Positions 2,618 to 15,940 of a DNA stretch of 64,000 bases are shown in pieces. Position 1 is the stretch's first letter. Each line of letters begins with the position of its first letter. The translations under genes were made by a program, and so were the position numbers. The notes beneath the pieces are model-generated. The model was not told where the DNA came from and did no database searches. It saw only the letters and a program-made list of their open reading frames with translations. Source of the stretch: Candidatus Altimarinota bacterium (GTDB lineage: Bacteria; Patescibacteriota; Gracilibacteria; 1-14-2-50-48-13); NCBI GenBank assembly GCA_046314355.1, contig JBKBWQ010000001.1:1056001-1120000 (forward strand). Direction: 5' to 3'.

Positions 2618-3721
2618 ATGTTCAAAGTTAGGTATCCAGCATCTTTTCTACTGATGATAGTTCTATGTTGTTTTTCCTTTACATATATTCCTCATGCAAA
2701 TGCTATAATCATATTCTCAAATGATGTATTTAAGAACGATTCGGATACATTTATAATAGATGGTGATGGAAGCTCCTCCACTTCTGTAACTTTACAGTTT
2801 GGAAGCAATACGGATAACTATCTCTCATGGCAAATACCTGCAGATCAATTTTATCTCAGTAATGACCTCGCAGTAGCGGGTAATATTCATCTTGAAGGAA
2901 ATAGCGTCGTTTTAAACTCTACGAATGCAAATACTATTCCTGCTCATATTGTAGCATATCAAGATGGTACTAATAATGGAGAAATACGCTATAATACCGT
3001 CACCAACCAATGGGAAATTAGTAATAATGGAGGGAAATTTAACCCGATTTCAAATACCCGTTTATTATCTTATGTAGACGAAGAGTTTTCACGGGACCGA
3101 GCTAATATTACCTCAGATGGAAATCAGGTATGGGGAGACATGCAGTCCTTTGGGCTTGATGAAGCAAATAACTGCACGTTTAGTGTTCTAGATGATGAGG
3201 TAGGTGGTATCGGAAGAATTGCGACCTCTAATAATGCTATAAATAATTGTCTTGCCTATCATTCTAATGCAACAGGAAATGCCCAGCTTATATTTCAAAT
3301 AGATACTCTCTACAGTATCATTGCAAAAGTGCGACCATCGGAAGCGAATGCTAATACTAACTTTTTTGTAGGTATCAGTGATACTGCATCTGCTGCAAAT
3401 ATCCCAAATAATGGTATTTATTTCACAAATAGTGAAGGAAATTGGATAGGAGTTACTCGTGCAAACGGTATTTCTACTGAGATTGCATGTAATAAATCAA
3501 TTTCCACTTCAGAATTTTCTCTTGTTCGTATCAAAATTGATGCTTCAAATAGCATATCCTTCTATATAGACAGTGATCTTTCAGATACTGAAAATATGGA
3601 GCTTTGCGGTACTTCATCTACAAATATTCCTACAGAAAAACTCAGCTCTTTCCTTAAACTAGGATCTAACGCAACTAATAGATTTTTTGACATAGATTTC
3701 TACAGAGTATGGGCATATTAA
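2618..3721 (+). CDS. Secreted/surface beta-rich hypothetical protein
   Basis: Signal peptide ending 'PHANA'; N/S/T-rich, beta-like C-terminal region ending 'DIDFYRVWAY'. Confidence 0.65.
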   Translation: MFKVRYPASFLLMIVLCCFSFTYIPHANAIIIFSNDVFKNDSDTFIIDGDGSSSTSVTLQFGSNTDNYLSWQIPADQFYLSNDLAVAGNIHLEGNSVVLNSTNANTIPAHIVAYQDGTNNGEIRYNTVTNQWEISNNGGKFNPISNTRLLSYVDEEFSRDRANITSDGNQVWGDMQSFGLDEANNCTFSVLDDEVGGIGRIATSNNAINNCLAYHSNATGNAQLIFQIDTLYSIIAKVRPSEANANTNFFVGISDTASAANIPNNGIYFTNSEGNWIGVTRANGISTEIACNKSISTSEFSLVRIKIDASNSISFYIDSDLSDTENMELCGTSSTNIPTEKLSSFLKLGSNATNRFFDIDFYRVWAY

Positions 3722-3723
3722 TT

Positions 3724-3969
3724 TTATTCATGCCACTTCATCTTCATATAGACATTGCCAGCTTTCAGCTCTGAGAGCATTTGATCAAGACGCTTTTGCT
3801 TCGTCTCCTCACGTACTCCACGCGTTATCCAGCTTATATAATCATTTTGCTGATATGAAGGGCGTGCTTTGTAAAGATCTACTACTTTATGTTCAATAAG
3901 TGCTTTTTCAATGTATACAGGCACTTCATTAGGTTCTCTTTTGAGATTTTTCGAGACAGTAATTTTCAT
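3724..3969 (-). CDS. YdeI/OmpD-associated family protein
   Basis: 'RPSYQQNDYISWI...ETKQKRLDQMLSELKAG' pattern; likely start ATG 3969 (MKITVSK). Confidence 0.8.
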   Translation of the reverse strand: MKITVSKNLKREPNEVPVYIEKALIEHKVVDLYKARPSYQQNDYISWITRGVREETKQKRLDQMLSELKAGNVYMKMKWHE

Positions 3970-3973
3970 ATGT

Positions 3974-4870
3974 CTATGATGTAAGAATAGAAATAATCTC
4001 TTTTCTTGCCTTTTTTGATTCAGGAAAGAAGAGAAGCGGCCAGTTATGAACCATATAATGATATTCATGATAACCGATATTTACCTTCGCTACCTTACAT
4101 TTCTCAACAAATTTCCTGCAGTCTGGTAAACAGAGTTCATGGGTCCCTACAAAAAGATCAATCTGCGGGAGTCCTTTCATATTGCCATAAAGAGGACTCA
4201 CTAAGTAGTAAGATGCTTCTACATCACCAGCATACACTGATCCTATCTCTCTTGTACCAGGGATAGCAAGTATTGGATCCAAAGATTCTATTGGATACAT
4301 ATCAGGATTACTGACAGTCATATCCACAGATGGAGAAAGGGCAACAATTCTTGCAGGCTGGGCGATACTTCTTTCAGTGAGTAGCTGTGAAAGAGCAAGA
4401 GCAATAGAAGCTCCTGATGAATCTCCCATCAAAATCAGATTATTTTTATCGGATTCATGAAGGGTTTTTTCATATAACGGCACCAGTATTTCAAATACAT
4501 CCTTGTAAGAGTAGTCAGGAGCGAGAGGATACATGGGAAGAATAATCCTATATCCAGTATGGTTTATCAAGTATTTCAAAAATCTCCAGTGCAATTGGGA
4601 TATTTCCGCGACATAGCCTCCTCCATAGAGATAAAAGATCGTTTTAGAATATTTTTTATTCTTTGGTTCTAAAACAAAGTAAGTATGATTCTTTATTGTT
4701 TCTTTCTTCCATTGGATTGACCAGCTCACATCCAAGGGTGGCTCACATTTATGTATATCTTGAATAGCCTCAATACAATTCCACAGCTCAGATCCTGTCA
4801 ATTGATAGAGTCTATTATAGTGAATGAATTTTAGAAATGATTTTGTAAGACGGCTTTGGATACTTTCCAT
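3974..4870 (-). CDS. Alpha/beta hydrolase (HSL-type esterase/lipase)
   Basis: YGGGY oxyanion motif, GDSSG nucleophile elbow, C-terminal 'MVHNW' His. Confidence 0.88.
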   Translation of the reverse strand: MESIQSRLTKSFLKFIHYNRLYQLTGSELWNCIEAIQDIHKCEPPLDVSWSIQWKKETIKNHTYFVLEPKNKKYSKTIFYLYGGGYVAEISQLHWRFLKYLINHTGYRIILPMYPLAPDYSYKDVFEILVPLYEKTLHESDKNNLILMGDSSGASIALALSQLLTERSIAQPARIVALSPSVDMTVSNPDMYPIESLDPILAIPGTREIGSVYAGDVEASYYLVSPLYGNMKGLPQIDLFVGTHELCLPDCRKFVEKCKVAKVNIGYHEYHYMVHNWPLLFFPESKKARKEIISILTS

Positions 4871-4947
4871 AATATGAGGTTATTCTCAGATACATTAGTC
4901 TACTAATAAAAAGACTTCATGGCAAGAATGCCTCAAATATTGATTTA

Positions 4948-4987
4948 GAATGGCTTGCCATTCGTAGCTCCGTCGAGGAACGAAGAC
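4948..4987 (-). repeat. tRNA 3' trailer hairpin, shared with the tRNA-Leu trailer
   Basis: gccattcgtagct.cg...a.cgaaga.tgg occurs here and at 51479-51511, each abutting a tRNA CCA end. Confidence 0.65.
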
Positions 4988-5033
4988 TGGAGCCGCCACG
5001 GAGGATTGAACTCCGGGCCTCGTCCTTACCAAG
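4988..5033 (-). pseudogene. 3' half of the split host tRNA-Thr(GGT), left junction of the element
   Basis: Reverse complement CTTGGTAAGGACGAGGCCCGGAGTTCAATCCTCCGTGGCGGCTCCA contains the anticodon loop, T-arm, 3' acceptor strand and CCA; it pairs with the 5' half at 13632-13671. Confidence 0.92.
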
Positions 5034-5116
5034 TATAGAAGATAAAGAGAGAGTATAGATAGTGGCTCTGAAAGATACTAAGGATTAACTGAACATCAAA
5101 ATGTGTCATCGTGCTG

Positions 5117-5158
5117 GAGGACCACATCCAAGAATGAATGCATAGATGTTATCTTTTA
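5117..5158 (+). repeat. Secondary repeats at the element's left end (putative recombinase arm/core sites)
   Basis: GAGGACCACATCC (5117-5129) is identical to 13622-13634; ATGTTATCTTTTA (5146-5158) matches 13581-13593 at 12/13. Confidence 0.65.
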
Positions 5159-5299
5159 TGCAAAAATACTCAAGTTTTATTAAGAAGTGTTAGAATCAAG
5201 GGTAGTATTAATAACTACCATAATTGAATAGAGGAGCTACTTTTATGTTGTATCCTTCCTTTTTTCTTGCTACTATTCAACATATTTTTTATTCACTTT

Positions 5300-5491
5300 A
5301 TGGAATTTCTGCAAAACTTATTAAATGGTAACGAAGGAGTAATTGCCTTTTGCGGCATAATAATAACATTATTAGCTGGTGCTGGAGTTGTATGGTACTT
5401 GAAAAATAAACAAACTATAAAAAGTGGTAAAAAAAGTATAAATCAGCAAACCAATGTAGGAAATAATATAAATTCAGGAAATATTAAGTAA
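5300..5491 (+). CDS. 63-aa single-pass membrane protein with Q/N/S/G-rich C-terminal tail; putative effector of the adjacent defence operon
   Basis: ATG at 5300; hydrophobic segment VIAFCGIIITLLAGAGVVWYL; tail KQTIKSGKKSINQQTNVGNNINSGNIK; TAATG overlap with the next gene. Confidence 0.75.
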   Translation: MEFLQNLLNGNEGVIAFCGIIITLLAGAGVVWYLKNKQTIKSGKKSINQQTNVGNNINSGNIK

Positions 5492-6054
5492 TGATATTCT
5501 CAAAACAATCCTCAGTATCAGGCGAAGGTTCCTTGACTCAACAAACTCAACAAGGGGACAATTATAGTTATAATAATTGTACCTTTTCTGGCGATGTAAA
5601 ACACGAACAAGAGGATTATGGAATAATTCAAGAAATTTTAGTTTATGCTTTAAGCAATATATCTGAAGGAGAAAATCCAATTGATGGTTACCTAAAGCTT
5701 AGAGATAAGATACAGCTAAATTTTCCTTCAGAAGATGAGCAAAAAATAGTAAATCAATATTTGACATGTGCATATATAAAATATCCGGCAATACAAGAGC
5801 AAATCAAATTGGCAGGTCCAGAAGTTGAGATACAGCTTCAAACACATATCTTTAGATTATATAGAAAATTATTTAAGGAAGGAAAAAATAATATTGATAT
5901 ACTTGAAGAGCTTTTTGACAATTTTGTATTGGTTGGAAAAAAACAGAACCCTGCTTATACTCAGATTGCTCAAGCATTTGTATTATTCTTCTTTGATGAC
6001 TGTACAATTTTTGAAAAAACTCCTCAGGATCAGCAATTAACTTTAAGTATGTAG
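5491..6054 (+). CDS. ABC-three-component/Lamassu LmuA-like protein (CTD only) with N-terminal Q/N/S/G-rich motif
   Basis: C-terminal 'AFVLFFFDDCTIFEK' resembles the FFxxCxIFE end of ABC-3C C-terminal domains; sits upstream of the small middle component and the SMC-like ATPase. Confidence 0.75.
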   Translation: MIFSKQSSVSGEGSLTQQTQQGDNYSYNNCTFSGDVKHEQEDYGIIQEILVYALSNISEGENPIDGYLKLRDKIQLNFPSEDEQKIVNQYLTCAYIKYPAIQEQIKLAGPEVEIQLQTHIFRLYRKLFKEGKNNIDILEELFDNFVLVGKKQNPAYTQIAQAFVLFFFDDCTIFEKTPQDQQLTLSM

Positions 6055-6055
6055 T

Positions 6056-6292
6056 ATGCTTATTCCATCAAAACATGAAGCACTTTCAAATAATACTTTA
6101 GTACTAGGCGCTCTAGTACTAAAAAAGATTAAAAAAGATACTTTTAATATTGAAGATCTATTTCAAAATCTCATCAAGTCAAATCTCATTTCACTTGATG
6201 ATTATTACGATACCCTTTCTTTTTTATGGTGTGCTGATTTGATTGAAGTTAAAAAATTACAAATAATCTTAAAAGAGAATGTTATTGCATAA
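6056..6292 (+). CDS. ABC-three-component middle component (LmuC-like)
   Basis: 78 aa; 'MLIPSKH...LVLGA...L.FLW..DLI' pattern of short middle components; overlaps the ATPase start. Confidence 0.78.
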   Translation: MLIPSKHEALSNNTLVLGALVLKKIKKDTFNIEDLFQNLIKSNLISLDDYYDTLSFLWCADLIEVKKLQIILKENVIA

Positions 6293-8057
6293 ATTATATT
6301 TAGAACCACAAAGTTATTTTGAACCAATTGAGTTTAAATTGGGGTTTAATTTTATATATGCAAAGAAAGATCAAGCATCTGATAAAAAGAAATCACTAAA
6401 CGGAGTAGGAAAATCGTTATTATTAAACTTAATTGATTTTTGTCTACTTTCTTCAGAGACTGAGCATATTAAATCAGCAAAAAAGAATAATAACTTAGTA
6501 GGACACTATGTGGTACTAGAGTTTAGTGTTAATGGTGAGAATTATATTATTAAACGACCTTTCTATAAACCTAATCAATCTATTTTCTTTGGAAAGATTA
6601 ATGAAGAGTTATTAGAATATAAACACTCAGATGTACACAGAAACCTATCTCAGATGCTCTGTGATTTGATTTTTAAAACACCATATACAGGAAAATACTC
6701 AAATACATGGCTTAGAAAGTTGATGCCATTTTTCATGAAAATTCAATCAGGAAAAAATAAAGTTAACTTTAAGGATCCTATTAACTATCTGAGCTCAACA
6801 AAGGAAATGGAGCTTATTTCCTATCACTTATTTTTGTTAGGTATCGATAATAGCCTTTTTTTTAAGAACTTTGAAGTTATGTCCTTGCTTAAAGAAAAAA
6901 TACCCGCACTAGGGCAGGTAAAATCTTTGGTAACTGAATCATATGAGTTAGATGTTGATCAAGCTGAAAATGAAATCACAAAACTTAGGGGACAAATAAA
7001 AAAATTTGAAGATCAAATTGAAAAATTTAAACTAGCTAAACAGTATGAGAATGTTGAACAAGAAAGTAATGCTCTTACTGGGGAAATAAAGAAGTTACTT
7101 TTTGAGAACTATCAAACAAAGAAAAAAATTGAATCATATGAAGCAAGCTTTACTATTGATAACCATATCAATGTTACGAAAATTGCAAATGCATATAAGG
7201 ATTTAAATAAGCTATTAGCGGAAAATATTAAGAAGACACTAAATGAAGCAATTGCATTTCGTAAAAGCCTTGCTGAATCTAGAAAAGAATTTTTACGAGC
7301 AGAAATTAATGCTCTATTATTAGAATTGAAAGATAGAGAAGATCGTATGACAAAATTAGAGGAAGAAAGAGCTAGATTATTTCGTTTTCTTGATGCAGAC
7401 AAAGCAATTAATGAGTTGTCAGAAGCTTATTTAAATTTAGGTGAAAAGAAAACATACTTAGGAAAGATGGAAGGCACAATGAGAATTTATAGAGATCTCA
7501 AACGTGAAATTGCTGACCTAAATGCAAATGCTAATCAAATTTATGCAGAGATAGAAAGCCTCATGGATACTATTCAAATAACTTTAGATAGTTTTCGTTC
7601 ATTGTTCTTTGAAGTTCATGATGCTATATATACCGAAAACCCAGATCAGGCACAATTTATATTTAATACAAATCCTAAAAAAGACTCTAAATTAAATATT
7701 AACGTAGAATTACCCTCTGAGTTAGCATACGGAAAAAATAGAGGACGAACCTTAGTATATGATATCACCGTATTACTTCATCTAGTACAACAAAATATTA
7801 ATGCCCCTCATTTCTTAGTACATGACGGGATCTTTGATGGTATAGATAGATCACATTTTATTGCGCTCTATAATTATTTATCTACTAAGACCAAGGATTC
7901 TCAATTTCAATACATAATCACCTTTAATCAAGAAGGTACCGTAAAGGATCTAGATTTTGGTGAAGGTGCTGAAGAACTCACTACAAGACGCATTGAACAT
8001 GAAGCAATTATTACTTTGTCATCATCTAAACCTTTATTTGGGCATAAATGGAAGTAA
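6279..8057 (+). CDS. SMC/Rad50-like ABC ATPase, DUF2326-like (short Lamassu LmuB-like)
   Basis: Walker A NGVGKS followed by LIDFCL; long central coiled coil; signature-like 'YGKNRG'; Walker B/D-loop FLVHDGIFDGID; 'QYIITFN'; C-terminal 'LFG'. Confidence 0.88.
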   Translation: MLLHKLYLEPQSYFEPIEFKLGFNFIYAKKDQASDKKKSLNGVGKSLLLNLIDFCLLSSETEHIKSAKKNNNLVGHYVVLEFSVNGENYIIKRPFYKPNQSIFFGKINEELLEYKHSDVHRNLSQMLCDLIFKTPYTGKYSNTWLRKLMPFFMKIQSGKNKVNFKDPINYLSSTKEMELISYHLFLLGIDNSLFFKNFEVMSLLKEKIPALGQVKSLVTESYELDVDQAENEITKLRGQIKKFEDQIEKFKLAKQYENVEQESNALTGEIKKLLFENYQTKKKIESYEASFTIDNHINVTKIANAYKDLNKLLAENIKKTLNEAIAFRKSLAESRKEFLRAEINALLLELKDREDRMTKLEEERARLFRFLDADKAINELSEAYLNLGEKKTYLGKMEGTMRIYRDLKREIADLNANANQIYAEIESLMDTIQITLDSFRSLFFEVHDAIYTENPDQAQFIFNTNPKKDSKLNINVELPSELAYGKNRGRTLVYDITVLLHLVQQNINAPHFLVHDGIFDGIDRSHFIALYNYLSTKTKDSQFQYIITFNQEGTVKDLDFGEGAEELTTRRIEHEAIITLSSSKPLFGHKWK

Positions 8058-8147
8058 CAACATACTCTATGGATAGATTTCAGTATATTCCTTAATATAC
8101 AAGTTGAGATATTAATATTCAGTCATGTAAGAGAACAGTATATGAAA

Positions 8148-8897
8148 TTATTGTGTTATGATGCAGGCTCGTGTTGAACCGTAGACACACTCTTGCTTAA
8201 GGTAGTCATAATACATAGGGCGAACTACAAGTGCGTAGAGAATACTCAATGTGATAATGACGCCGCAAATAAATACCCATAATGGTACAACTCGTTTTTT
8301 GTTAATGACAGATATCTTCTTAATTAAATCCTGAGACTTTGCTTTTAATTGAGGTAGTAAAGGAGGTTGACTCTTCTCTTCAGCAATAGGAATATTATTT
8401 TTTGCATAGTATGGATGTCGTAGACAGAAAATACTTCCTATAACTATCGCTATGTTAATTGCTCCTATGGGTCCACCGCCAGTGATAACAGTCCGAATAC
8501 ATTGATAGGCTATACTTAGCTTTAGAAATATTCTACTTCTCTTTCTGGTTATAAAAACTCCAACAATATCTAAAACAAAGAATGCTGTAGTAATCACAAT
8601 AAAGGTTGTCTTTGAACTTTCAGATATTCCTTTAAGATTTTGAAAAAAGTAAAGTCCTACAGCAAGTGTTAATATTCCAGAAATAAGGTAGGCAATACTC
8701 GTAAAAGTAGCTATACCCGGTAGAGTATTTTCATCTATGATTTTCTCCTCTTCTTTCTTTTTCTGAAATTCTTGGTTAATTTTCGATGCTGTTTCTTGAT
8801 TATATTCTTCACCTTTCATTTCTTCTCCACATTTCTGGCAGTATTGGTACTCATAGCTCTGTACATTGCCGCAGTGTAAGCATTTTTCTTCTTTCAT
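8148..8897 (-). CDS. Zinc-ribbon-containing membrane protein
   Basis: N-terminal CxxC-x10-CxxC followed by about five hydrophobic segments. Confidence 0.65.
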   Translation of the reverse strand: MKEEKCLHCGNVQSYEYQYCQKCGEEMKGEEYNQETASKINQEFQKKKEEEKIIDENTLPGIATFTSIAYLISGILTLAVGLYFFQNLKGISESSKTTFIVITTAFFVLDIVGVFITRKRSRIFLKLSIAYQCIRTVITGGGPIGAINIAIVIGSIFCLRHPYYAKNNIPIAEEKSQPPLLPQLKAKSQDLIKKISVINKKRVVPLWVFICGVIITLSILYALVVRPMYYDYLKQECVYGSTRACIITQ

Positions 8898-8937
8898 AAA
8901 GTAGTTGATAAATAAGTAATTCAGCTAACCTATATTC

Positions 8938-9519
8938 CTAAAATAATTTCTGTGAATCATTTAAATTTGCTTCAAGAGCATCAGGTGACATATTGGCACG
9001 GAAATTCTCATCTTGCTTACACTTATGAGACGCATAGAGAAGATAAGCTCCTCCAAGTAAAAGAGTAATCAGTAGACCTATAGATTCTGTAATTCTTTGA
9101 TTTTCAAAAGAATCATTAAACTCTGAGTATGTACGTATGAGACCAAATATTCCTATCACGCACAGTACACACCATATAGCCTGAAGAACGAATGAAACAT
9201 TAGCCCATACATATCTTGTTCTGAAAAAACCTCGTGCTAATAATCCAAACACTACTGTAGCCGATAATGTTCCAATCATGTTCCAAACGTAAACTTCAAG
9301 TTTTGTGAGTATTCTCGAGGAAAGATCTACATTTTTAGGAAGAAAATTCCATTCTATTTGAACCTCTTTTCCTATATTAAAAAATATCCAAAGAAGGGAG
9401 AGAAAACTTATGATAGCAATTATCATATATACTATTCCCACTATTTTTGCCTCAATAGGAAGGGTCTTGAACTGTCTTCTCGCTGTTTTCGTTTCTGATG
9501 CTTTGAGGGTACTTGTCAT
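8938..9519 (-). CDS. Four-TM hypothetical membrane protein
   Basis: Likely ATG at 9519 (MTSTLK); four hydrophobic segments. Confidence 0.65.
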   Translation of the reverse strand: MTSTLKASETKTARRQFKTLPIEAKIVGIVYMIIAIISFLSLLWIFFNIGKEVQIEWNFLPKNVDLSSRILTKLEVYVWNMIGTLSATVVFGLLARGFFRTRYVWANVSFVLQAIWCVLCVIGIFGLIRTYSEFNDSFENQRITESIGLLITLLLGGAYLLYASHKCKQDENFRANMSPDALEANLNDSQKLF

Positions 9520-9564
9520 AAAAAAACCTGTAAGAAATAATATACAGGATTGGTAGGATAGCAA

Positions 9565-9718
9565 AAGCGGGACTACCTCGCCTGGCTACCCGTTCTTACT
9601 TTGCATTACACAAAGCAGTTTACGGCAGGGAGATAGCCCCACCTGTGGTGTAAACTGTTGTGTATGCACGGACGAATAATCGTCGTGAATGCGATTTGTA
9701 AGTAAAAACGGGTAGCAC
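9565..9718 (-). ncRNA. Structured RNA leader (attenuator or antisense-regulated RNA candidate)
   Basis: 17-bp outer stem (9585-9601 with 9700-9716), inner stems, and a third 15-bp pairing (9626-9640 with 9569-9584); the apparent mismatches are G-U pairs on the minus strand; begins just after a sigma70-like promoter. Confidence 0.6.
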
Positions 9719-9722
9719 AAAC

Positions 9723-9751
9723 ATAATACCGTCTAAGATGTATATCATCAA
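9723..9751 (-). promoter_or_regulatory. Sigma70-type promoter for the structured leader and membrane-protein genes
   Basis: TTGATG-N17-TATTAT on the minus strand. Confidence 0.65.
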
Positions 9752-9834
9752 GTCTAATATCAGAGTTGTTTTTTTACGGGGCTATACTAGTATCTATAAA
9801 GAAGTCACCGGCATGATTTTTAACGCCACTGAAT

Positions 9835-10191
9835 ATGTGTATTGCTCTAAAGAAAGATGATACGAAATGCAAAGGTAGCTCAATGCTGGGATCGGAATAT
9901 TGTTTCTTCCACAATCCGGATATTAGTAAGAAGGAAAGAAAGCAAGCTCAAGCCAAAGGAGGTAGAAATAGACGAAGTAAAGTAACATCGCCTCTGAAAC
10001 CTATGTCACTACATTCCTCAAAGGATGTAGCTCACCTACTCTCAGATACCATTAATCAAGTGCGAATAGGACAAATGGATGTCAAAGTGGCAAATTGCCT
10101 GGGAATATTAAGCAATCATCTTCTGAGAGCCTTCGAAGGAGTAGAGTTAGAAAGAAGAGTTCAAGCGTTGGAGAATTTACATACTTCATAA
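9835..10191 (+). CDS. Small CCCH zinc-finger protein of mobile elements
   Basis: C-x9-C-x11-C-x2-H ('CIALKKDDTKC...YCFFHNP'), basic 'AKGGRNRR', C-terminal 'ERRVQALE'. Confidence 0.65.
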   Translation: MCIALKKDDTKCKGSSMLGSEYCFFHNPDISKKERKQAQAKGGRNRRSKVTSPLKPMSLHSSKDVAHLLSDTINQVRIGQMDVKVANCLGILSNHLLRAFEGVELERRVQALENLHTS

Positions 10192-10196
10192 TCACT

Positions 10197-10412
10197 ATGT
10201 CTACAATCAGCACTCGTATTAAAAAACTTGAAAAAATAGTGGCAGACCAGTCCAAGAATAGGGTAGAAATCATCGAATATTACGCCTATAAGGTGCCTAT
10301 ATATTATGTTCACAAGAATATAGCTTACTCTTCTCTTGAAGAGTGTAGAGAGCAAAATAAAGCTGTTCTTCAGGGAGCCTCAGAGATCCTACTTATTAAT
10401 TTTGCCGATTAA
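10197..10412 (+). CDS. Small hypothetical protein
   Basis: ATG 6 nt after the previous stop; 'MSTISTRIKKLEK' start; ends 3 nt before the next ATG. Confidence 0.55.
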   Translation: MSTISTRIKKLEKIVADQSKNRVEIIEYYAYKVPIYYVHKNIAYSSLEECREQNKAVLQGASEILLINFAD

Positions 10413-10415
10413 AGT

Positions 10416-11456
10416 ATGAGTACCCCCACACCCCCATTACTAAGTAAGCCTCTGCATTATTATGAAGCAGAACACAAGACACTCATGGTTGCTTGGCATT
10501 TATTGAGAAATGGTATCGAAGATGAGTTCTATCAAGAAAGTTTTGTTCATCTTGAAAATCATACCTTTATGAGTGCCTCAGATATTGCTGAAGCTATCAG
10601 TAATCTTACCTCATACGGAGGAATTGAAGAGTTCAAGTACCAACTTTTTCCTGTAGGAGATAGGCAAACTCATTACCCTGAGGAGCATCTGGACCATACA
10701 AAACTCTATGAGCTCATAACTAATGAAAAGAACCCACAGCTGAATATATGGGAATCCTTCATCAAGGTAGATCATATAACCTTGTATACTATCAAAATTA
10801 ATAAGGAAGGACTTATTAATTATATGGAGCGTTATGTAGACCTATGGAGAGCAAATCGTTATAGGATCCATGGCAAGAATACTCTTTCTGCTGATATCCA
10901 ATTACGTTCTGTCTTAAAAGACATCTTTGTATATATAGACAGAAATAAGGCACAATACTATTTACCCATTGATGAAGAGATGCTCATTGATACCTTTGCG
11001 GTCCTTATTTTTCTTGAATATGAAGGAGCTATCACTATTCATACACTCCTCCAGAATCCTCAAGGAAAGCTCACAGCGCATATATCACGACGAGGGAATT
11101 TTTCTAAAAAAACATCTATTCACAATGGAAAAATCTACCATGGCTTTTCCATAGATACTCCAGGGCAAGAAAAAATACGTCTAACTTCACCATATAGGCT
11201 AATATATAAGGGCATTATTCGTTCACTTTTTAAGGATAAGCGCAGTACAGCACTAATTCACAATACGCTATCTAACGAATTATTCAGTATAGACATAGAA
11301 ACATTTATTAAATTATCAGGAGAGAATCCTTTAAATCTACGCAAGGATATTGATAAGTTTCAACATGACGTTAGAGAAAAGTTTAAAATCGCCGAACCAC
11401 TGATAAAAGTATCTCAAACTAACATTACCCTGAATAATAAATACTGGGGGTTTTAA
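10416..11456 (+). CDS. Hypothetical protein, possible C-terminal winged-helix DNA-binding domain
   Basis: 346-aa ORF in an operon with the upstream small genes; helix-then-hairpin pattern at the C-terminus (inferred). Confidence 0.55.
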   Translation: MSTPTPPLLSKPLHYYEAEHKTLMVAWHLLRNGIEDEFYQESFVHLENHTFMSASDIAEAISNLTSYGGIEEFKYQLFPVGDRQTHYPEEHLDHTKLYELITNEKNPQLNIWESFIKVDHITLYTIKINKEGLINYMERYVDLWRANRYRIHGKNTLSADIQLRSVLKDIFVYIDRNKAQYYLPIDEEMLIDTFAVLIFLEYEGAITIHTLLQNPQGKLTAHISRRGNFSKKTSIHNGKIYHGFSIDTPGQEKIRLTSPYRLIYKGIIRSLFKDKRSTALIHNTLSNELFSIDIETFIKLSGENPLNLRKDIDKFQHDVREKFKIAEPLIKVSQTNITLNNKYWGF

Positions 11457-11529
11457 AAAGGGGATATATTAGGGGATATTTAGTTTTTTTGAATGGAGTA
11501 TATTCCGCACAAGAAATAATATCACCTCT

Positions 11530-12570
11530 ATGAAACTGAATACTCTTATACAGCTTTTCCCTCAAGATGAGTGGGATAAATACCATGTAATGGTCACTCA
11601 GGGACAAACTCCTCTTTGGAAATACTGGGAAGAGTATGTTACGAGACAACTAGACTTGGGAGGTTCTATGCAAACACTTCAGAACGTCCGCAGTACAATG
11701 CAATTTATTGTAAGACACATGAATATATATAGCATTGAAGAATGTAATAATCAAAATACATTTGAAGATCGATTAATTGATGTGAAGAAGGAAAGAAGAC
11801 ACTCAGGAAGTACTACTAATACAATCTTGAAAAATATAAAAACATACTTTATATGGTTACGCAGAAGAGAATACATACTTGAAAATAAATTGGATTTAGT
11901 CCAGAAGTCTAAAACTGTGAAAAATGCACAAGTAGCCTTCTCAAAAGAACAAGTATTGTATATTCAAGAAGCGATATTGAATCAAACGCATACACCTTTA
12001 ATAACAATGCGTAATTTCCTATTTATAAAACTTCTTGCTCTAACAGGTGCACGCCCAAGTGAACTCCTTAACCTGAAAGCTTCATCACTAGAGAAAACGT
12101 CTATAGGAGATTACGTCTTAAAAATCACTGGAGTAAAACAGATTACAAAACCAAGAGTATATCATATCAAAGATCTTATCTTTGCCCAAATATTTGAAAG
12201 CTATATGAGTCATCGTGCCAAAATAGGTCGTAGTGATGAGGCATTATTTATATCGTCCTCTATGAAAGGACCGTGGACATATCAAGGATTACGAAAACTC
12301 TTTGCTAGTATTGCAAAAAAAGTAGGTTTTCAGGTGACTGCTTACGGTTTCAGAAGATATGTGGCAACAAATCTTCATACCCAAAGACTTCCAATTGAAA
12401 AAATTGCTCAGCACCTAGGACACACTCGTTTATCTACTACGATGCTGTATATCCAAAATAGTACTGAGCATACTTTAGAAGCAATGACTATGTTAGAATC
12501 GAATTTAATGAGTGCATCTCCACTGACTTTGCCATCTGCATATTCGAACAAGAAAGATAAATGGTTGTAG
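11530..12570 (+). CDS. Tyrosine recombinase/integrase (variant Y-x-x-R motif)
   Basis: TGARPSEL, AYGFRRYVAT, HLGH, TTMLY catalytic boxes; N-terminal SAM-like region. Confidence 0.9.
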   Translation: MKLNTLIQLFPQDEWDKYHVMVTQGQTPLWKYWEEYVTRQLDLGGSMQTLQNVRSTMQFIVRHMNIYSIEECNNQNTFEDRLIDVKKERRHSGSTTNTILKNIKTYFIWLRRREYILENKLDLVQKSKTVKNAQVAFSKEQVLYIQEAILNQTHTPLITMRNFLFIKLLALTGARPSELLNLKASSLEKTSIGDYVLKITGVKQITKPRVYHIKDLIFAQIFESYMSHRAKIGRSDEALFISSSMKGPWTYQGLRKLFASIAKKVGFQVTAYGFRRYVATNLHTQRLPIEKIAQHLGHTRLSTTMLYIQNSTEHTLEAMTMLESNLMSASPLTLPSAYSNKKDKWL

Positions 12571-13402
12571 TAGTGATCCTCGCATGCCCCATAAGTTTTG
12601 AAAGAGTATAAATATCACATCCTCCTTCCAGCATAAGTCTGGCAAAAGCATGGCGTAGTGTGTGAGCTGAGAAAGGTATCTTCAATCGTTCACGAATAAC
12701 TTTAATGTTATTTGTAATCGCTCTTTTCGTTATTCCTAGGTCTTTCTGTACCGCTGTAAAAAAGAAAATGGAACTCTTCTTCAGACGATTCCTGTCCTTT
12801 AGATATTCTTCTAGAATGCTACATAGCTTCATATTCATAGGTATCATTCGATCCTTTGATCCCTTCCCCTGATGAATAAAGATAGTTCTGCTTTCAAATG
12901 ATACATCATGCAGCTTCAAGTGAACCACTTCAGAGATTCGGAGACCTGCTAAAAGCATCAATGCAAGCATCGCCCTGTTCCTGAATTTCTCAAACTTATA
13001 CGGGTACTTCATATGATAAGACATATCAAGAATAAGTGTACTCTCCTCCTTCGTAAGAGTCTTTGGCAACCTCTGTTCCATCTTTGGGAGCTCTATATCC
13101 GCAAGGATATTTTTCTCTACGATACTCTCTTTCACTAGCCACTTAAAAAAGGCATTAAATCGCTTGTGGTAGTGTCGGAAGGTTGCGGAGGTCCATTTAC
13201 GCTCTAGTCGTCCATGAAAGAACCATGCCTCAAATAAAGGCTTTGTAAGTTCTTCAAGATAAACTACCTTTGTTGAGCTCACAAAGTAGCGAAAGATTTC
13301 TCTGTAGCTTTTAATTGTTTCAGGTGCATAATTCCGAATACATACGCAATACTGCAAGTAGCGCTCAAGCAGGTTTTTAAGATCTGTTTTTTGTCCGTAC
13401 AT
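12488..13402 (-). CDS. Tyrosine recombinase, XerC/XerD-like
   Basis: AGLRISEV, GKGSK, HTLRHAFA, LMGH, TTTIY; likely ATG at 13402. Confidence 0.93.
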   Translation of the reverse strand: MYGQKTDLKNLLERYLQYCVCIRNYAPETIKSYREIFRYFVSSTKVVYLEELTKPLFEAWFFHGRLERKWTSATFRHYHKRFNAFFKWLVKESIVEKNILADIELPKMEQRLPKTLTKEESTLILDMSYHMKYPYKFEKFRNRAMLALMLLAGLRISEVVHLKLHDVSFESRTIFIHQGKGSKDRMIPMNMKLCSILEEYLKDRNRLKKSSIFFFTAVQKDLGITKRAITNNIKVIRERLKIPFSAHTLRHAFARLMLEGGCDIYTLSKLMGHARITTTTIYLSCSNMQMAKSVEMHSLNSILT

Positions 13403-13445
13403 TAAAAAGAAGAGAAGAAATATAATCTTCACTCTTGAATAGACC

Positions 13446-13520
13446 TGGAGCCACCGGAGGGACTTGAACCCTCGACCTACCCCTTACCATGGGGTTGCTC
13501 TACCACTGAGCTACGACGGC
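13446..13520 (-). tRNA. tRNA-Thr(GGT), element-borne complete copy
   Basis: GCCGTCGTAGCTCAGTGGTAGAGCAACCCCATGGTAAGGGGTAGGTCGAGGGTTCAAGTCCCTCCGGTGGCTCCA folds as a cloverleaf; anticodon GGT; encoded CCA. Confidence 0.93.
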
Positions 13521-13552
13521 ATTTGATGCTTTCATGACTACTTACACAGGAG

Positions 13553-13581
13553 AGGATACTCTGGACTTAGTAAAAAGTCTA
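13553..13581 (-). promoter_or_regulatory. Putative promoter for the element tRNA and downstream integrase
   Basis: TAGACT-N17-TATCCT on the minus strand, about 30 nt upstream of the tRNA. Confidence 0.45.
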
Positions 13582-13631
13582 TGTTATCCTTTACCGCTAG
13601 CCATTATCCGAGAAATCAGCAGAGGACCACA

Positions 13632-13671
13632 TCCTTACCAAGGACGCGCTCTACCACTGAGCTATGACGGC
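13632..13671 (-). pseudogene. 5' half of the split host tRNA-Thr(GGT), right junction of the element
   Basis: Reverse complement GCCGTCATAGCTCAGTGGTAGAGCGCGTCCTTGGTAAGGA, followed by non-tRNA sequence. Confidence 0.92.
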
Positions 13672-13751
13672 AGACTATTTATAACAAAGTTATGAGCCAT
13701 ACACTTTGCCAAAATTACAAAGCAATTATACATGAATATATCCTTACTCTT

Positions 13752-14093
13752 CTATACAATTTTCCAAGAATGTAGTAGTTTTTCCCAGTATTTGACTATT
13801 ATCTCTCTATCTTGTTCAGGCAGCAGGCGAAAATCTTCCACTTCTTCAGGATGGATTTCCACTACAAGCGGGATGCGTCCCCAGTCACTTGCACTACTAG
13901 TCCATATAAAATCAGATGGAATAACACGATCTACAAGCAGAACTTCATAATTTTCTTCTAATAAAATTTTATGAGGATGGAATTCTTTAATGAATACTTC
14001 ATCTACCTCCTCATCAGTAGGAAGCCATACAGTATCGTAATCTCTGAAAGCAAAGATCGAAGGATCTGACATATCAATAAGAATATATTTCAT
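13752..14093 (-). CDS. Hypothetical protein
   Basis: 113-aa ORF with ATGA overlap to the upstream gene. Confidence 0.6.
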   Translation of the reverse strand: MKYILIDMSDPSIFAFRDYDTVWLPTDEEVDEVFIKEFHPHKILLEENYEVLLVDRVIPSDFIWTSSASDWGRIPLVVEIHPEEVEDFRLLPEQDREIIVKYWEKLLHSWKIV

Positions 14094-14635
14094 ACATTTT
14101 TTCGTAAAAATATTTTTAATTTCTCTAAAGCAAGTCGCTTCATAGAATACTTTCCCTTTTCCTCCAGGTCCATTTCTGCCCAGGTTTTATCAGCACCTTT
14201 AGGTATAAATATCGCATCCCAGCCAAATTCAGGAATACCTCTAGGTTCTTCTGCGATACGTCCCTGTCTCTCACCAATAAAAATTTCAAGTCTCTCTCCA
14301 TCATACAAACCAAAAATAGTCTGAGCTACTGCAGAGCGGTCATCAAAACTATGCAAAATCTTGCATAATCCGTCATTTCCCAAGTCCTGAAGGAATAACT
14401 TAATACTTGGACCTGGAAGTCTTCCTAATGCCTTAAATCGTAACCAGACGTCTTCTACAAGCACAGGAGACTGTACCTTCTCATAAGCCTGTTTTGCCTT
14501 ATAAAGAATACTCTCTTCAATAGACCAGGATTGTAACTCTTGAAGATCCATTTTGTAATGAGAGACTGGTATATCCAAAAATCTACTCAGAGTTTCTGCT
14601 TTTTTCTGATTGCCTGTAACGTAGGTGATATTCAT
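14090..14635 (-). CDS. Non-canonical purine NTP pyrophosphatase (Ham1/ITPase family)
   Basis: 'VTGNQKK', 'VLVED', 'LPGPSIK', 'FGWDAIF', 'TWAEM' Ham1 motifs. Confidence 0.92.
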   Translation of the reverse strand: MNITYVTGNQKKAETLSRFLDIPVSHYKMDLQELQSWSIEESILYKAKQAYEKVQSPVLVEDVWLRFKALGRLPGPSIKLFLQDLGNDGLCKILHSFDDRSAVAQTIFGLYDGERLEIFIGERQGRIAEEPRGIPEFGWDAIFIPKGADKTWAEMDLEEKGKYSMKRLALEKLKIFLRKNV

Positions 14636-14767
14636 AGATATGATAATTTGAAATTACTTTAAGCTGTATTTATTTAAATAACAATTTTTACATATAAAAT
14701 TTACTCTAAATCTTTGCTATATGATATAATTTTATAAGATTTATTCCCATTATTCTGACCAATTATA

Positions 14768-15940
14768 ATGAATTTTAACAATGCTGATGGTGACAAAGAA
14801 GATTTTTTAAAGAGCAAAAATATCCTAACTAATGAAAATTTAAACTCATCTAATCAACCAATAGATTTAACAATAGAAACTTTATCTAAATTATCAGATA
14901 TAGAACTTTCAAAGTTCTATTCAAATAATATGATCGTAGATCTTTTTAAGCATAATAATGCATTAGAAAATGATACAATGAAAGGAATAGATAGTACTTA
15001 TGTACTTGAAGAAGATATAAAATTACTTATTGAAAATGCTTATCATATATTTTTATACAATACGGAAAGTCTGGTAAGAACTTCTTTGCCGATCATAAAG
15101 CTGCATATACAAAATAATGAAAGTCGCGATCTCATATTTAGTGAACTAGAAATGCTTTATTACAATTTAAGTACAAGCTTATCTAATGTTTATAGTTTAT
15201 TTACAACTTTAAAAAATAGAGGAGTCATAAAAACGGAAGCTAGTGTAGGGGAAATGAATGGATATGATGATAAAATAAGAGAACACCTTAAACTTATTAA
15301 AAACAATGTAACCTTCATTGGAGAAGGATACTTACCAGGTTTATGGAAAAAATTACCATCTGAGATTGAAAAAGAGATTAGTGAAAAAGATCACGCAACC
15401 GTCACTGAATTGAAAAATCCAAAAAACCTAAGAATCGATAGCATATGGGGATTAGAAAAAAACTTCCCGAATCCATCTAAAAAAATTTTTGAGAAAGTTT
15501 TGTCATTTCGGGAAATTTCAAATGAGCAAAAGCAAGAATTAGTACTCCAGCTTATAAAGCAAAAAGAGAATGATACTTTGATAAGTGAAAACGATAAGGA
15601 TTTGGTATACTCTACTATTGAAAAAATTATCAATACACATGAAATACTCCCCTCAGAGGTAGATATAAATATTCGTCAAAGTGATGATGAATACTTCATT
15701 TTTTATCTGCATACGGGAGAATCACCCGATGAACTTTATGTTTTACAAAAAAATGGTATCTTCGAAAAAAATGATAGCTTTGATAATCAAAAGGGACAAC
15801 ATGGAAGAAGCAGCTGGAGTGAATCATGGACACATAAGGGAGAATATTTCAGTATGTCCGGTGATACTTCTCATGGCAATAAACCAAATCCTAATTACGC
15901 AAAAATTAAACCTTTAAGTAAATTCACCTTAAAAAATTAA
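14768..15940 (+). CDS. Hypothetical protein (very AT-rich orphan)
   Basis: 390-aa ORF; no recognisable motif. Confidence 0.6.
   Translation: MNFNNADGDKEDFLKSKNILTNENLNSSNQPIDLTIETLSKLSDIELSKFYSNNMIVDLFKHNNALENDTMKGIDSTYVLEEDIKLLIENAYHIFLYNTESLVRTSLPIIKLHIQNNESRDLIFSELEMLYYNLSTSLSNVYSLFTTLKNRGVIKTEASVGEMNGYDDKIREHLKLIKNNVTFIGEGYLPGLWKKLPSEIEKEISEKDHATVTELKNPKNLRIDSIWGLEKNFPNPSKKIFEKVLSFREISNEQKQELVLQLIKQKENDTLISENDKDLVYSTIEKIINTHEILPSEVDINIRQSDDEYFIFYLHTGESPDELYVLQKNGIFEKNDSFDNQKGQHGRSSWSESWTHKGEYFSMSGDTSHGNKPNPNYAKIKPLSKFTLKN

What the first reader, a model, noticed from the sequence alone, without database searches (positions are those of the whole stretch)
4988..13671. Element destroys the host tRNA-Thr(GGT) and supplies a complete replacement tRNA instead of restoring it
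Seen: joining 13632-13671 to 4988-5022 (minus strand) rebuilds a full cloverleaf (acceptor GCCGTCA/TGGCGGC, anticodon stem CGTCC/GGACG). Only 11 bp around the anticodon loop are duplicated, so neither junction gives an intact gene. Inside the element, about 110 bp from the right junction, is a full tRNA with the same GGT anticodon but different stems (ACCCC/GGGGT; different T-arm). Known: most tRNA-targeting integrases carry the displaced 3' portion in attP and so regenerate the gene. Inference: this is complementation by a separate gene. It could let a minimal anticodon-loop att site work across hosts with different tRNA bodies, and makes imprecise loss of the element costly.
Basis: partly seen in the sequence, partly recalled or inferred. 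Interest (0 to 1): 0.78.

Follow-up and report, generated by a model that had tools for sequence, protein, structure and literature searches.

The report
Island splits tRNA-Thr, carries replacement
An 8.6-kb mobile defence island has cut this ultra-small bacterium's only threonine tRNA(GGT) gene in two and brings its own complete copy, a trick shown for mycobacterial phages in 2024 and seen here in a family of non-phage islands.

Summary
Host tRNA-Thr(GGT) is split in its anticodon loop: the 5' part is 13671-13632 and the 3' part 5022-4988, both on the minus strand. An 11-bp direct repeat (5023-5033 and 13632-13642) flanks an 8,609-bp insert. Joined in silico, the halves give a canonical tRNA; neither junction as it stands does.

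The insert holds a complete, different tRNA-Thr(GGT) (13446-13520), which is the only one ARAGORN finds in the genome. It also holds two tyrosine recombinases and a PDC-M68/ABC-3C-type defence cassette.

The layout is a family trait. 25 of 40 related Gracilibacteria/Peregrinibacteria loci show orphan 5' half, conserved spacer, whole tRNA, then integrase. In 4 further islands the distal 3' half matches the orphan and not the island's tRNA. The integrase is patchy, found in 14 of 201 class genomes. A same-family relative without it has an intact tRNA-Thr(GGT) just downstream of topA.

The principle is published as "tRNA-dependent lysogeny" of actinophages (PMC10865867). This scan also noted the same kind of CPR island on other DNA (e1-1560993). 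I found no report of a non-phage island with Xer-like recombinases and a fixed att-tRNA-int cassette.

No excision was seen, and expression was not tested.

The parts
4988..5022 (-). Displaced 3' part of host tRNA-Thr(GGT) 'A': end of anticodon stem, variable loop, T arm, acceptor 3' strand, CCA
   Evidence: Read directly. With the 5' part it folds into a canonical tRNA-Thr(GGT). Unique in the genome.
5023..5033 (.). Left copy of the 11-bp core TCCTTACCAAG (distal junction)
   Evidence: D18.
5117..5129 (-). Distal copy of the 13-nt motif GGATGTGGTCCTC, about 100 nt inside the distal core; probable recombinase-binding site (inferred)
   Evidence: Exactly 2 matches in the 64-kb window against 0.05 expected. 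A motif of the same form, at the same offset (-100 or -101), is found by pattern in 5 of 6 islands with a located distal end; the sixth (L116) shows a variant by eye.
5491..6054 (+). Cargo: 187-aa protein, weak match to PADLOC PDC-M68A
   Evidence: E 5.2e-6, 24.6 bits. No Pfam hit.
6056..6292 (+). Cargo: 78-aa protein resembling ABC-3C middle component MC6, below Pfam's cut-off
   Evidence: 24 bits against a cut-off of 27.2.
6279..8057 (+). Cargo: 592-aa DUF2326 / PDC-M68B / LmuB-like ABC-type ATPase
   Evidence: DUF2326, 74.5 bits. (PDC-M68B 229 bits; LmuB 59 bits).
8148..11456 (.). Four ORFs of unknown function: 8148-8897 (-), 8938-9564 (-), 9835-10191 (+), 10416-11456 (+)
   Evidence: No convincing family in Pfam, PADLOC, PHROGs or NCBIfam. 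No tblastn match in the 42 related loci.
11530..12570 (+). Second tyrosine recombinase (P0002, 346 aa), convergent with and overlapping the integrase gene
   Evidence: Pfam Phage_integrase, 73 bits. Homologues at 37-43% identity lie convergent to the integrase in 10 of the related loci listed.
12488..13432 (-). Xer-like tyrosine integrase (P0001; 314 aa as an ORF, likely start at Met-11)
   Evidence: Pfam Phage_integrase 118.8 bits plus a SAM-like N-domain. Catalytic R, H-x-x-R and H...Y are visible in the translation. The family sits next to tRNA-Thr(GGT) in relatives.
13446..13520 (-). Island-borne complete tRNA-Thr(GGT) 'B' with encoded CCA; the only tRNA-Thr(GGT) called in the genome
13521..13631 (-). 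Conserved 111-nt spacer of the island. It begins with the proximal motif copy (13622-13634, overlapping the core by 3 nt). It ends in a hairpin-like block just upstream of tRNA B.
   Evidence: Alignment of 26 loci; motif search.
13632..13671 (-). Orphan 5' part of host tRNA-Thr(GGT) 'A' (acceptor 5' strand, D arm, anticodon stem 5' strand and loop); includes the right core copy at 13632-13642

Best explanation
An 8,609-bp integrative island entered the anticodon loop of the host's single tRNA-Thr(GGT) gene by site-specific recombination. The enzyme is an Xer-like tyrosine integrase, probably working with a second convergent recombinase. The crossover lay in a core of about 11 bp.

The island's attachment site has no usable T arm or acceptor strand, so the host gene stays split. 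Between its attachment site and its integrase gene the island carries a complete tRNA-Thr(GGT) of a different sequence. That tRNA takes over decoding of ACC and ACU.

The rest of the island is cargo: a PDC-M68/ABC-3C-type candidate anti-phage system and unknown genes. It is not a prophage.

- Shown: the anatomy, its recurrence in a family, the sole-copy status of the island tRNA, and the patchy spread of the integrase.
- Inferred: that the island tRNA is expressed and needed, which recombinase acts, and that the island still moves.
For: **Anatomy.**
- The split halves rejoin in silico into a perfect tRNA, and no tRNA is found at either junction.
- The direct repeat is 11 bp.
- tRNA B is the only Thr(GGT) among 39 tRNAs in a 98%-complete genome.
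- ACC plus ACT account for about 50% of Thr codons.

**Recurrence in relatives.**
- Integrase homologues of 44-60% identity sit 14-133 bp downstream of an intact tRNA-Thr(GGT). An orphan 5' half lies 127-190 nt upstream of that tRNA's start. This holds in 25 of the 40 loci I scanned.
- All orphans break after GGTAAGG and continue with a conserved island motif.
- In L029, L114, L115 and L116 the distal 3' half pairs 7/7 (acceptor) and 5/5 (anticodon stem) with the orphan.
- For L114-L116 the distal half pairs only 2-3/5 with the island tRNA's anticodon stem. For L029 the island tRNA's stems differ by eye.
- In G201-G205 no other tRNA with this anticodon arm was found. Each genome had two tRNA-like pattern hits, both at the locus. 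The 10 other hits are not tRNAs.

**Mobility.**
- The integrase occurs in 14 of 201 class genomes and in 0 of 3 same-family genomes, with up to 4 matches in one genome.
- G002, a same-family genome without the integrase, has an intact tRNA-Thr(GGT) right after topA (67% identity to the window's TopA).

**Precedent.** The mechanism is demonstrated in actinophages (PMC10865867).
Against: - No empty site and no circular junction appeared. Only contigs could be laid, not raw reads, and contigs drop rare variants.
- No genome of the same genus was available, so there is no true isogenic empty site.
- Expression of tRNA B is untested. A simple sigma-70 scan found no promoter in 13380-13760, which is weak evidence either way.
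- tRNA-Thr(UGU) is present and might read all four ACN codons, which would make B less essential.
- In some relatives the orphan and the island tRNA share rare acceptor stems (L020, L050). L041's island tRNA equals the native tRNA of the related L040 outside the anticodon stem. The island tRNAs are therefore not always foreign.
- L050 and L054 look like one old insertion inherited vertically. The 25 loci are not 25 independent events.
- L032 is ambiguous: its distal 3' part is 100% identical to the island tRNA's over 46 nt.
Confidence: 0.85

Rival explanations
1. The island is an old, fixed relic, no longer mobile. Its tRNA has simply become the host's gene, and the recombinases are decaying or serve another purpose.
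For: No excision product was seen. L050 and L054 share a nearly identical spacer, tRNA and integrase together with related upstream flanks, as expected for vertical inheritance. Some loci have stop codons within the tblastn-matched integrase segment (L048 8, L040 2, L041 1).
Against: In the window both recombinase frames are open and keep their catalytic residues. The core repeat is exact. The unselected halves still pair perfectly: 7/7, 5/5 and 5/5. The same holds for the acceptor and anticodon stems in 4 other islands. The family is patchy and sometimes multi-copy.
Confidence: 0.2
2. Classical island: the junction next to the spacer (13599-13671) is still a working, if odd, tRNA. Under this view tRNA B is accessory cargo, for codon supply or as a shield against tRNA-cutting defences.
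For: Rfam scores the hybrid 34.4 bits, above the gathering score of 29. Its anticodon stem pairs (one G-U), and a stretch 20 nt further on pairs 6/7 with the acceptor strand.
Against: The alignment has no T arm and no CCA, while both real tRNAs here encode CCA. ARAGORN rejects it. By my estimate the 6/7 match has a chance probability of a few percent. In relatives the post-loop sequence is a conserved island motif and not a tRNA 3' half. B is the only normal Thr(GGT) gene.
Confidence: 0.05
3. Assembly artefact or chromosomal rearrangement: the two halves and tRNA B come from different strains, or from an inversion, and not from an insertion.
For: The genome is a metagenome assembly of 28 contigs with 3.4% contamination.
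Against: A second assembly of the run gives one 68.6-kb contig that is identical across both junctions. The halves lie in direct order with an exact 11-bp repeat. The same architecture, with both ends, recurs in 4 other genomes.
Confidence: 0.03

Closest known systems
tRNA-dependent lysogeny of actinobacteriophages (Fionnbharth/K4, Cluster L, Cain/K6, BrutonGaster and OneUp/CQ2, Mollymur/DL, Gaia/X; Guerrero-Bustamante & Hatfull, mBio 2024, PMC10865867)
   Same: A tyrosine integrase uses an attB inside a single-copy host tRNA gene. The common core is 8-17 bp (here 11 bp). No functional tRNA forms at either junction. The element encodes a tRNA with the same anticodon. Within one integrase family, members that carry a whole tRNA are mixed with members of other layouts (paper's Table 2; here).
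   Different: - The element here is an 8.6-kb island with defence cargo and no phage genes, so 'lysogeny' does not apply.
- The integrase is a roughly 300-aa Xer-like enzyme. It aligns end to end with XerD/XerC/XerA profiles and I saw no extra arm-binding domain. The paper describes lambda-like integrases with arm-type sites.
- A second convergent recombinase is conserved.
- The tRNA gene sits at a fixed place between att and int in 26 loci.
- The host phylum is Patescibacteria.
- The requirement for the tRNA is shown in the phages and only inferred here.
Classical tRNA-gene islands and prophages (as defined for the Islander database, PMC4383910; abstract seen in a search listing)
   Same: Integrase next to a tRNA gene, a crossover within the tRNA gene, and a displaced 3' fragment of the target marking the far end.
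   Different: The island does not regenerate the target. The repeat is 11 bp, whereas the paper's Table 2 lists cores of 33-52 bp for phages that rebuild the tRNA. An orphan 5' half remains.
Lj965 prophage of Lactobacillus johnsonii, and S. meliloti prophages similar to Mesorhizobium phage Lo5R7ANS
   Same: Cited as prophages that fail to rebuild the tRNA and carry a cognate tRNA. Lj965: discussion of PMC10865867. Rhizobial case: passages of PMC12429752.
   Different: Both are prophages of other phyla. I read only the citing passages, not the original papers.
Earlier notes of this scan (e1-1560993 and others)
   Same: e1-1560993 describes a 12-kb CPR defence island that splits tRNA-Thr at the anticodon loop and carries its own copy next to the integrase. 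It is most likely the same family.
   Different: It concerns another genome. These are AI notes and not publications; I did not see its sequence.

Membership tests
tRNA-dependent lysogeny (PMC10865867) | Tyrosine integrase whose attB overlaps a host tRNA gene | tested here: met
   Integrase domain. The insertion lies in the anticodon loop of tRNA-Thr(GGT).
tRNA-dependent lysogeny (PMC10865867) | Short common core (about 10 bp), so that no functional tRNA is rebuilt at a junction | tested here: met
   11-bp repeat. ARAGORN finds nothing at either junction. The Rfam hit of 34.4 bits lacks a T arm and CCA.
tRNA-dependent lysogeny (PMC10865867) | [quoted passage not shown] | tested here: met
   tRNA-Thr(GGT) at 13446-13520, inside the insert.
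tRNA-dependent lysogeny (PMC10865867) | The disrupted host tRNA is single-copy | tested here: met
   Whole-genome ARAGORN finds one Thr(GGT), the island's. The assembly is 98% complete, so a copy in unassembled DNA is not excluded.
tRNA-dependent lysogeny (PMC10865867) | [quoted passage not shown] | not testable with these tools
   Needs genetics. Indirect support only: about 50% of Thr codons are ACC or ACT.
tRNA-dependent lysogeny (PMC10865867) | The element is a temperate phage | tested here: not met
   PHROGs hits are integrases or families of unknown function. No close relative in IMG/VR (24% identity or less for near-full-length matches). The cargo is defence-type.
Classical tRNA-restoring genomic island | The island-borne 3' part regenerates the target tRNA at the integrase-proximal junction | tested here: not met
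Classical tRNA-restoring genomic island | A displaced target fragment marks the distal end | tested here: met
   3' part at 4988-5022.
XerC/XerD chromosome-dimer resolvases | Score above the curated family cut-off, and near-universal single-copy presence | tested here: not met
   XerD profile 182.9 bits against a cut-off of 329.6. Present in 14 of 201 class genomes. The genome has another recombinase, 30% identical, at C1:322067.
PDC-M68 / ABC-3C defence system (cargo) | ABC/SMC-like ATPase with a small middle component and an effector-like partner | tested here: inconclusive
   PDC-M68B 229 bits and DUF2326 74.5 bits are solid. PDC-M68A (24.6 bits) and MC6 (24 bits, below 27.2) are weak.
Recombinase-in-trio (RIT) elements (definition recalled, not from a call) | Three tandem, co-oriented tyrosine recombinase genes | tested here: not met
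   Only two recombinase genes, and they are convergent. The third 346-aa ORF (10416-11456) matches no family.

The most novel reading that the evidence does not exclude
The att-tRNA-int order may be a promoter-capture device. The island's tRNA always lies about 110 nt downstream of the crossover and in the same direction as the target. After integration it would then be transcribed from the host tRNA-Thr promoter as a precursor of orphan half, spacer and tRNA. The replacement would switch on exactly when the host gene is destroyed.

Over time the unselected halves would decay, or the orphan would recombine with the island tRNA. The island's tRNA would then become the lineage's native gene. Under this reading, tRNA-Thr genes in these bacteria are serially replaced by island copies. 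L040/L041, L032, L019 and L025 would be intermediate stages.
Probability: 0.3. Interest if true: 0.6.

Novelty: new variant of a known kind. Interest (0 to 1): 0.45.

Why it matters
- It extends a strategy shown so far only in temperate phages (2024) to small non-phage defence islands of ultra-small CPR bacteria. These islands use a simpler, Xer-like recombinase pair.
- It shows the strategy as the dominant layout of a whole integrase family, not as an oddity.
- Island finders that look for a regenerated tRNA plus a long repeat will misplace or miss such islands. Annotators will take the island's tRNA for the host's own.
- The compact att-tRNA-int cassette could be a starting point for integration tools in organisms that have no genetics.
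- The principle itself is not new.

Tried and rejected
- **Housekeeping Xer idea.** The many 55-62% identical roughly 298-aa homologues named XerD first suggested a host gene. That would have made B and the integrase host DNA. I rejected this on patchy distribution, sub-threshold Xer scores and the recurrent split architecture.
- **Empty site in close relatives.** No same-genus genome exists. DNA flanks matched only through the tRNA. The flank proteins other than TopA found nothing near G002's tRNA.
- **Metagenome contigs.** An exact 36-nt pattern from the host 3' part gave 0 hits. P0001 gave 0 close relatives.
- **Excision products.** Only contigs of three runs could be laid. No joints were listed. 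This says nothing about rare forms.
- **Second copy of B's 3' part.** Such a copy would mark a nested classical island. None was found in the genome.
- **RNA structure in the spacer.** RNAalifold on the MAFFT alignment recovered only the D and anticodon arms. The hairpin-like block before tRNA B was seen by eye only.
- **Promoter or terminator near B.** None found by the consensus scan.
- **Native versus foreign by identity.** G002 is 62/76 identical to A and 61/76 to B. G003 is 58/76 to both. This is uninformative.
- **Group I intron in L023.** Rfam gave no intron hit at E up to 1.
- **Transposon with target duplication.** I saw no terminal inverted repeats at the ends among the 25 longest pairs listed, and the island encodes tyrosine recombinases.
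- **Supplementary files** of PMC10865867 (att-site figures S1 and S2) could not be seen. They may bear on how similar the att anatomy is.


Full report
**1. Observation**

ARAGORN finds three tRNAs in the window. One is tRNA-Thr(GGT) at 13446-13520 on the minus strand.

Read on the minus strand, 13671-13632 is the first 40 nt of a tRNA-Thr(GGT): acceptor strand, D arm, anticodon stem and loop. Likewise 5022-4988 is the missing 35 nt: stem, variable loop, T arm, acceptor strand and CCA.

The only sequence shared by the two junctions is TCCTTACCAAG, at 5023-5033 and 13632-13642, with spacing 8,609 (D18).

Joined by script, the parts give a canonical 75-nt tRNA-Thr(GGT). The junctions as they stand give none. 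Both halves are unique in the genome.

Rfam scores the 5'-half junction at 34.4 bits (gathering score 29), but the alignment omits the T arm and no CCA follows. The other junction has no tRNA hit.

A second assembly of the probable source run holds the whole 3500-15000 stretch in one 68,575-nt contig without a difference.

**2. What lies between the halves**

| Coordinates | Strand | Content |
|---|---|---|
| 5491-6054 | + | Weak PDC-M68A-like protein |
| 6056-6292 | + | MC6-like 78-aa protein, below Pfam's cut-off |
| 6279-8057 | + | DUF2326 / PDC-M68B / LmuB-like ATPase |
| 8148-11456 | both | Four ORFs without a family |
| 11530-12570 | + | Tyrosine recombinase P0002 |
| 12488-13432 | - | Convergent, overlapping Xer-like tyrosine integrase P0001, with catalytic residues visible |
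| 13446-13520 | - | tRNA B |
| 13521-13631 | - | 111-nt spacer up to the core |

There are no phage structural or lysis genes. IMG/VR holds no relative above 24% identity over a near-full-length match; short partial matches reach 40%.

**3. Host gene or island gene?**

P0001 has hundreds of homologues of about 298 aa and 50-62% identity in Peregrinibacteria, Gracilibacteria and Patescibacteria, often named XerD. That raised the possibility that it and tRNA B are host genes. Three results speak against this.

- The family was found in only 14 of 201 sampled genomes of the class (E up to 1e-40, G000 included). It was found in 0 of 3 same-family genomes, with up to 4 matches in one genome.
- Its scores are far below the curated Xer cut-offs.
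- The genome has another recombinase, 30% identical, elsewhere.

**4. The layout is a family trait**

Of the 80 loci returned from GTDB genomes I scanned 40: L013-L048, L050, L051, L053 and L054. I left out L049, L052 and L055-L092, which were all partial or at most 50% identical over short stretches.

In 25 of the 40, an intact tRNA-Thr(GGT) lies 14-133 bp upstream of the integrase. An orphan tRNA-Thr 5' half starts 127-190 nt upstream of that tRNA, in the same direction.

The 15 others are as follows:

- L019 and L025: only core plus 3' half before the integrase.
- L023: two perfectly matching halves separated by about 205 nt.
- L036: an odd junction.
- L051: an orphan, with a tRNA 3.9 kb downstream.
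- L034 and L040: one intact tRNA-Thr(GGT) and no orphan.
- L037: the tRNA is 3.2 kb away.
- L039 and L053: truncated.
- L042 and L044-L047: more distant loci, mostly Bacteroidota (L045 Pseudomonadota), with other tRNAs or none.

Aligned, the 26 orphans (window included) are invariant up to GGTAAGG. They then switch to a conserved non-tRNA sequence of the form GG[AG]TGT..CCTC, followed by a hairpin-like block just before the intact tRNA.

**5. Both ends in relatives**

| Island | Approx. size | Distal 3' half vs orphan (acceptor / anticodon stem) | Distal half vs island tRNA |
|---|---|---|---|
| L029 | 5.4 kb | 7/7 / 5/5 | Stems differ by eye |
| L114 (= L013) | 10.0 kb | 7/7 / 5/5 | 3/5 anticodon stem |
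| L115 (= L014) | 8.0 kb | 7/7 / 5/5 | 3/5 anticodon stem |
| L116 (= L015) | 7.6 kb | 7/7 / 5/5 | 2/5 anticodon stem |

- L032/L118 is ambiguous. Its distal 3' part is 100% identical over 46 nt to the island tRNA's.
- L117's contig ended before any distal half.
- A second motif copy lies 100-101 nt inside the distal core in 5 of the 6 islands with a located end, by pattern. The sixth (L116) has a variant by eye.
- In the window the 13-mer GGATGTGGTCCTC occurs exactly twice, at 5117-5129 and 13622-13634, against 0.05 expected.
- The inferred attP is therefore: motif, about 88 nt, core, motif, about 100 nt, tRNA, integrase.

**6. Need for the island tRNA**

- B is the only Thr(GGT) among the 39 tRNAs of the genome. 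The other Thr tRNA has anticodon TGT.
- ACC and ACT are 11% and 39% of Thr codons in 601 long frames.
- In G201-G205 a pattern for this anticodon arm hit the orphan and the island tRNA plus 10 other places. None of those 10 is a tRNA. The pattern could miss an unusual copy, and these are MAGs.

**7. Empty site**

- No same-genus genome exists.
- In same-family G002, which lacks the integrase family, the single tRNA-Thr(GGT) is intact. It lies just downstream of topA (67% identity to the window's TopA), on the same strand.
- In the window the split gene lies 2.3 kb downstream of topA, with three genes between. The far flank is not syntenic.
- tRNA identity does not separate the split gene from B: G002 is 62/76 versus 61/76 identical.

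**8. Evolution within the family**

An integrase tree of 39 rows was built from 38 loci plus the window, leaving out the truncated L039 and L053. The state labels are mine.

- The split layout occurs in 26 of the 35 rows of the main clade, which holds the Patescibacteria loci plus two Pseudomonadota rows (L037, L045). The other states are nested inside it.
- Well-supported branches force at least 4 changes.
- L019's 46-nt 3' part equals that of L021's island tRNA.
- L025 lies 19.7 kb downstream of L023 on one chromosome.
- These two '3'-half' cases may be island tRNAs hit by a further insertion, and not classical sites. This reading was prompted by scan note e1-2208414.
- L040 has an intact tRNA exactly where the related L041 has its orphan. 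L041's island tRNA equals L040's tRNA outside the anticodon stem.
- Orphan and island tRNA are slightly more alike within a locus than between loci: 0.85 against 0.81 mean identity. Identical rare acceptor stems occur in L020 and L050.
- Island tRNAs are therefore sometimes taken from, or converted by, the host lineage.
- L050 and L054 look like one inherited insertion.

**9. Mechanism**

Shown:
- The insertion lies in the anticodon loop with an 11-bp core.
- No tRNA is rebuilt.
- The island carries a whole tRNA.

Inferred:
- P0001, possibly with P0002, catalyses the exchange. Homologues of P0002 lie convergent to the integrase in 10 listed relatives.
- The motif copies are binding sites.
- B decodes ACC and ACU.
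- Precise excision would restore the host gene, because its halves are undamaged.
- The fixed position and direction of B just downstream of the crossover suggests transcription from the host tRNA promoter. This is untested, and the promoter scan found nothing in the spacer.

**10. Comparison with what is known**

- 'tRNA-dependent lysogeny' (PMC10865867; I read the abstract and sections 5, 10 and 11) has the same logic. Cores are 8-17 bp, no tRNA is rebuilt, and a cognate phage tRNA is required. Related integrases either rebuild the gene or not.
- That paper's discussion cites prophage Lj965.
- PMC12429752 (passages read) cites a rhizobial prophage case.
- The term occurs in 23 papers of the library. 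I read two of them; the other titles and abstract starts listed suggest none on CPR or non-phage islands.
- 'Patescibacteria + integrase + tRNA-Thr' gave 0 papers.
- A search on genomic islands not restoring the tRNA gave 0 papers.
- The scan's own notes describe the same kind of island in another CPR genome (e1-1560993) and analogous islands in other phyla.

**11. Verdict**

The principle is already known. What is new is the setting: a non-phage defence island, an Xer-like recombinase pair, a hard-wired att-tRNA-int cassette, and a CPR host. Interest is moderate.

Noticed in passing
L023:5689-5971 (same 1.93-Mb chromosome as L025): The tRNA-Thr(GGT) next to this integrase copy is interrupted right after the anticodon by about 205 nt. 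The two flanking parts pair perfectly (7/7 acceptor, 5/5 anticodon stem, by eye). The insert follows a U and ends in G, as a group I intron would (recalled rule). Rfam gave no intron hit at E up to 1.
   Followed up: partly
L019:45-91 and L025:5940-5985: Only the core plus a tRNA 3' half precedes the integrase. L019's 46 nt equal the 3' part of L021's island tRNA. L025 lies 19.7 kb downstream of family member L023. Possibly island tRNAs split by a later insertion of a related island.
   Followed up: partly
L040:385-460 versus L041:5666-5868: Related genomes: L040 has one intact tRNA-Thr(GGT) where L041 has the orphan half. L041's island tRNA is identical to L040's tRNA except in the anticodon stem. 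This hints that island tRNAs are acquired from, or recombine with, the host gene.
   Followed up: partly
window 13521-13570 (minus strand) and the matching columns 118-160 of alignment A2: A hairpin-like conserved block (GTCCAGAG...CCCT...GGGA...CTCTCG in the consensus), with what look like compensating changes between loci, lies just upstream of the island tRNA. RNAalifold on the MAFFT alignment did not call it. It could be a processing signal, a terminator of the truncated host transcript, or a protein-binding site.
   Followed up: no
window 11530-12570 and 12488-13432: The two recombinase genes converge and overlap by 83 bp. The pairing of the two genes is conserved in relatives at varying distance. 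A two-recombinase integration module is unusual for small tRNA islands.
   Followed up: partly
L037 (MAG labelled Wenzhouxiangellaceae) and L045 (MAG labelled Rhodospirillales): Integrases of this otherwise Patescibacteria family (50% and 39% identity) turn up in MAGs labelled Pseudomonadota. L037 has a tRNA-Thr(GGT) with encoded CCA and a 94%-identical copy of its 3' part 2 kb away. This could be binning contamination or transfer.
   Followed up: no
G000 whole genome: Only 39 tRNA genes were called, nearly all single-copy. tRNA-Ile(GAT) and tRNA-Ala(TGC) lie 88 kb apart, not together as in a usual rRNA operon spacer.
   Followed up: no
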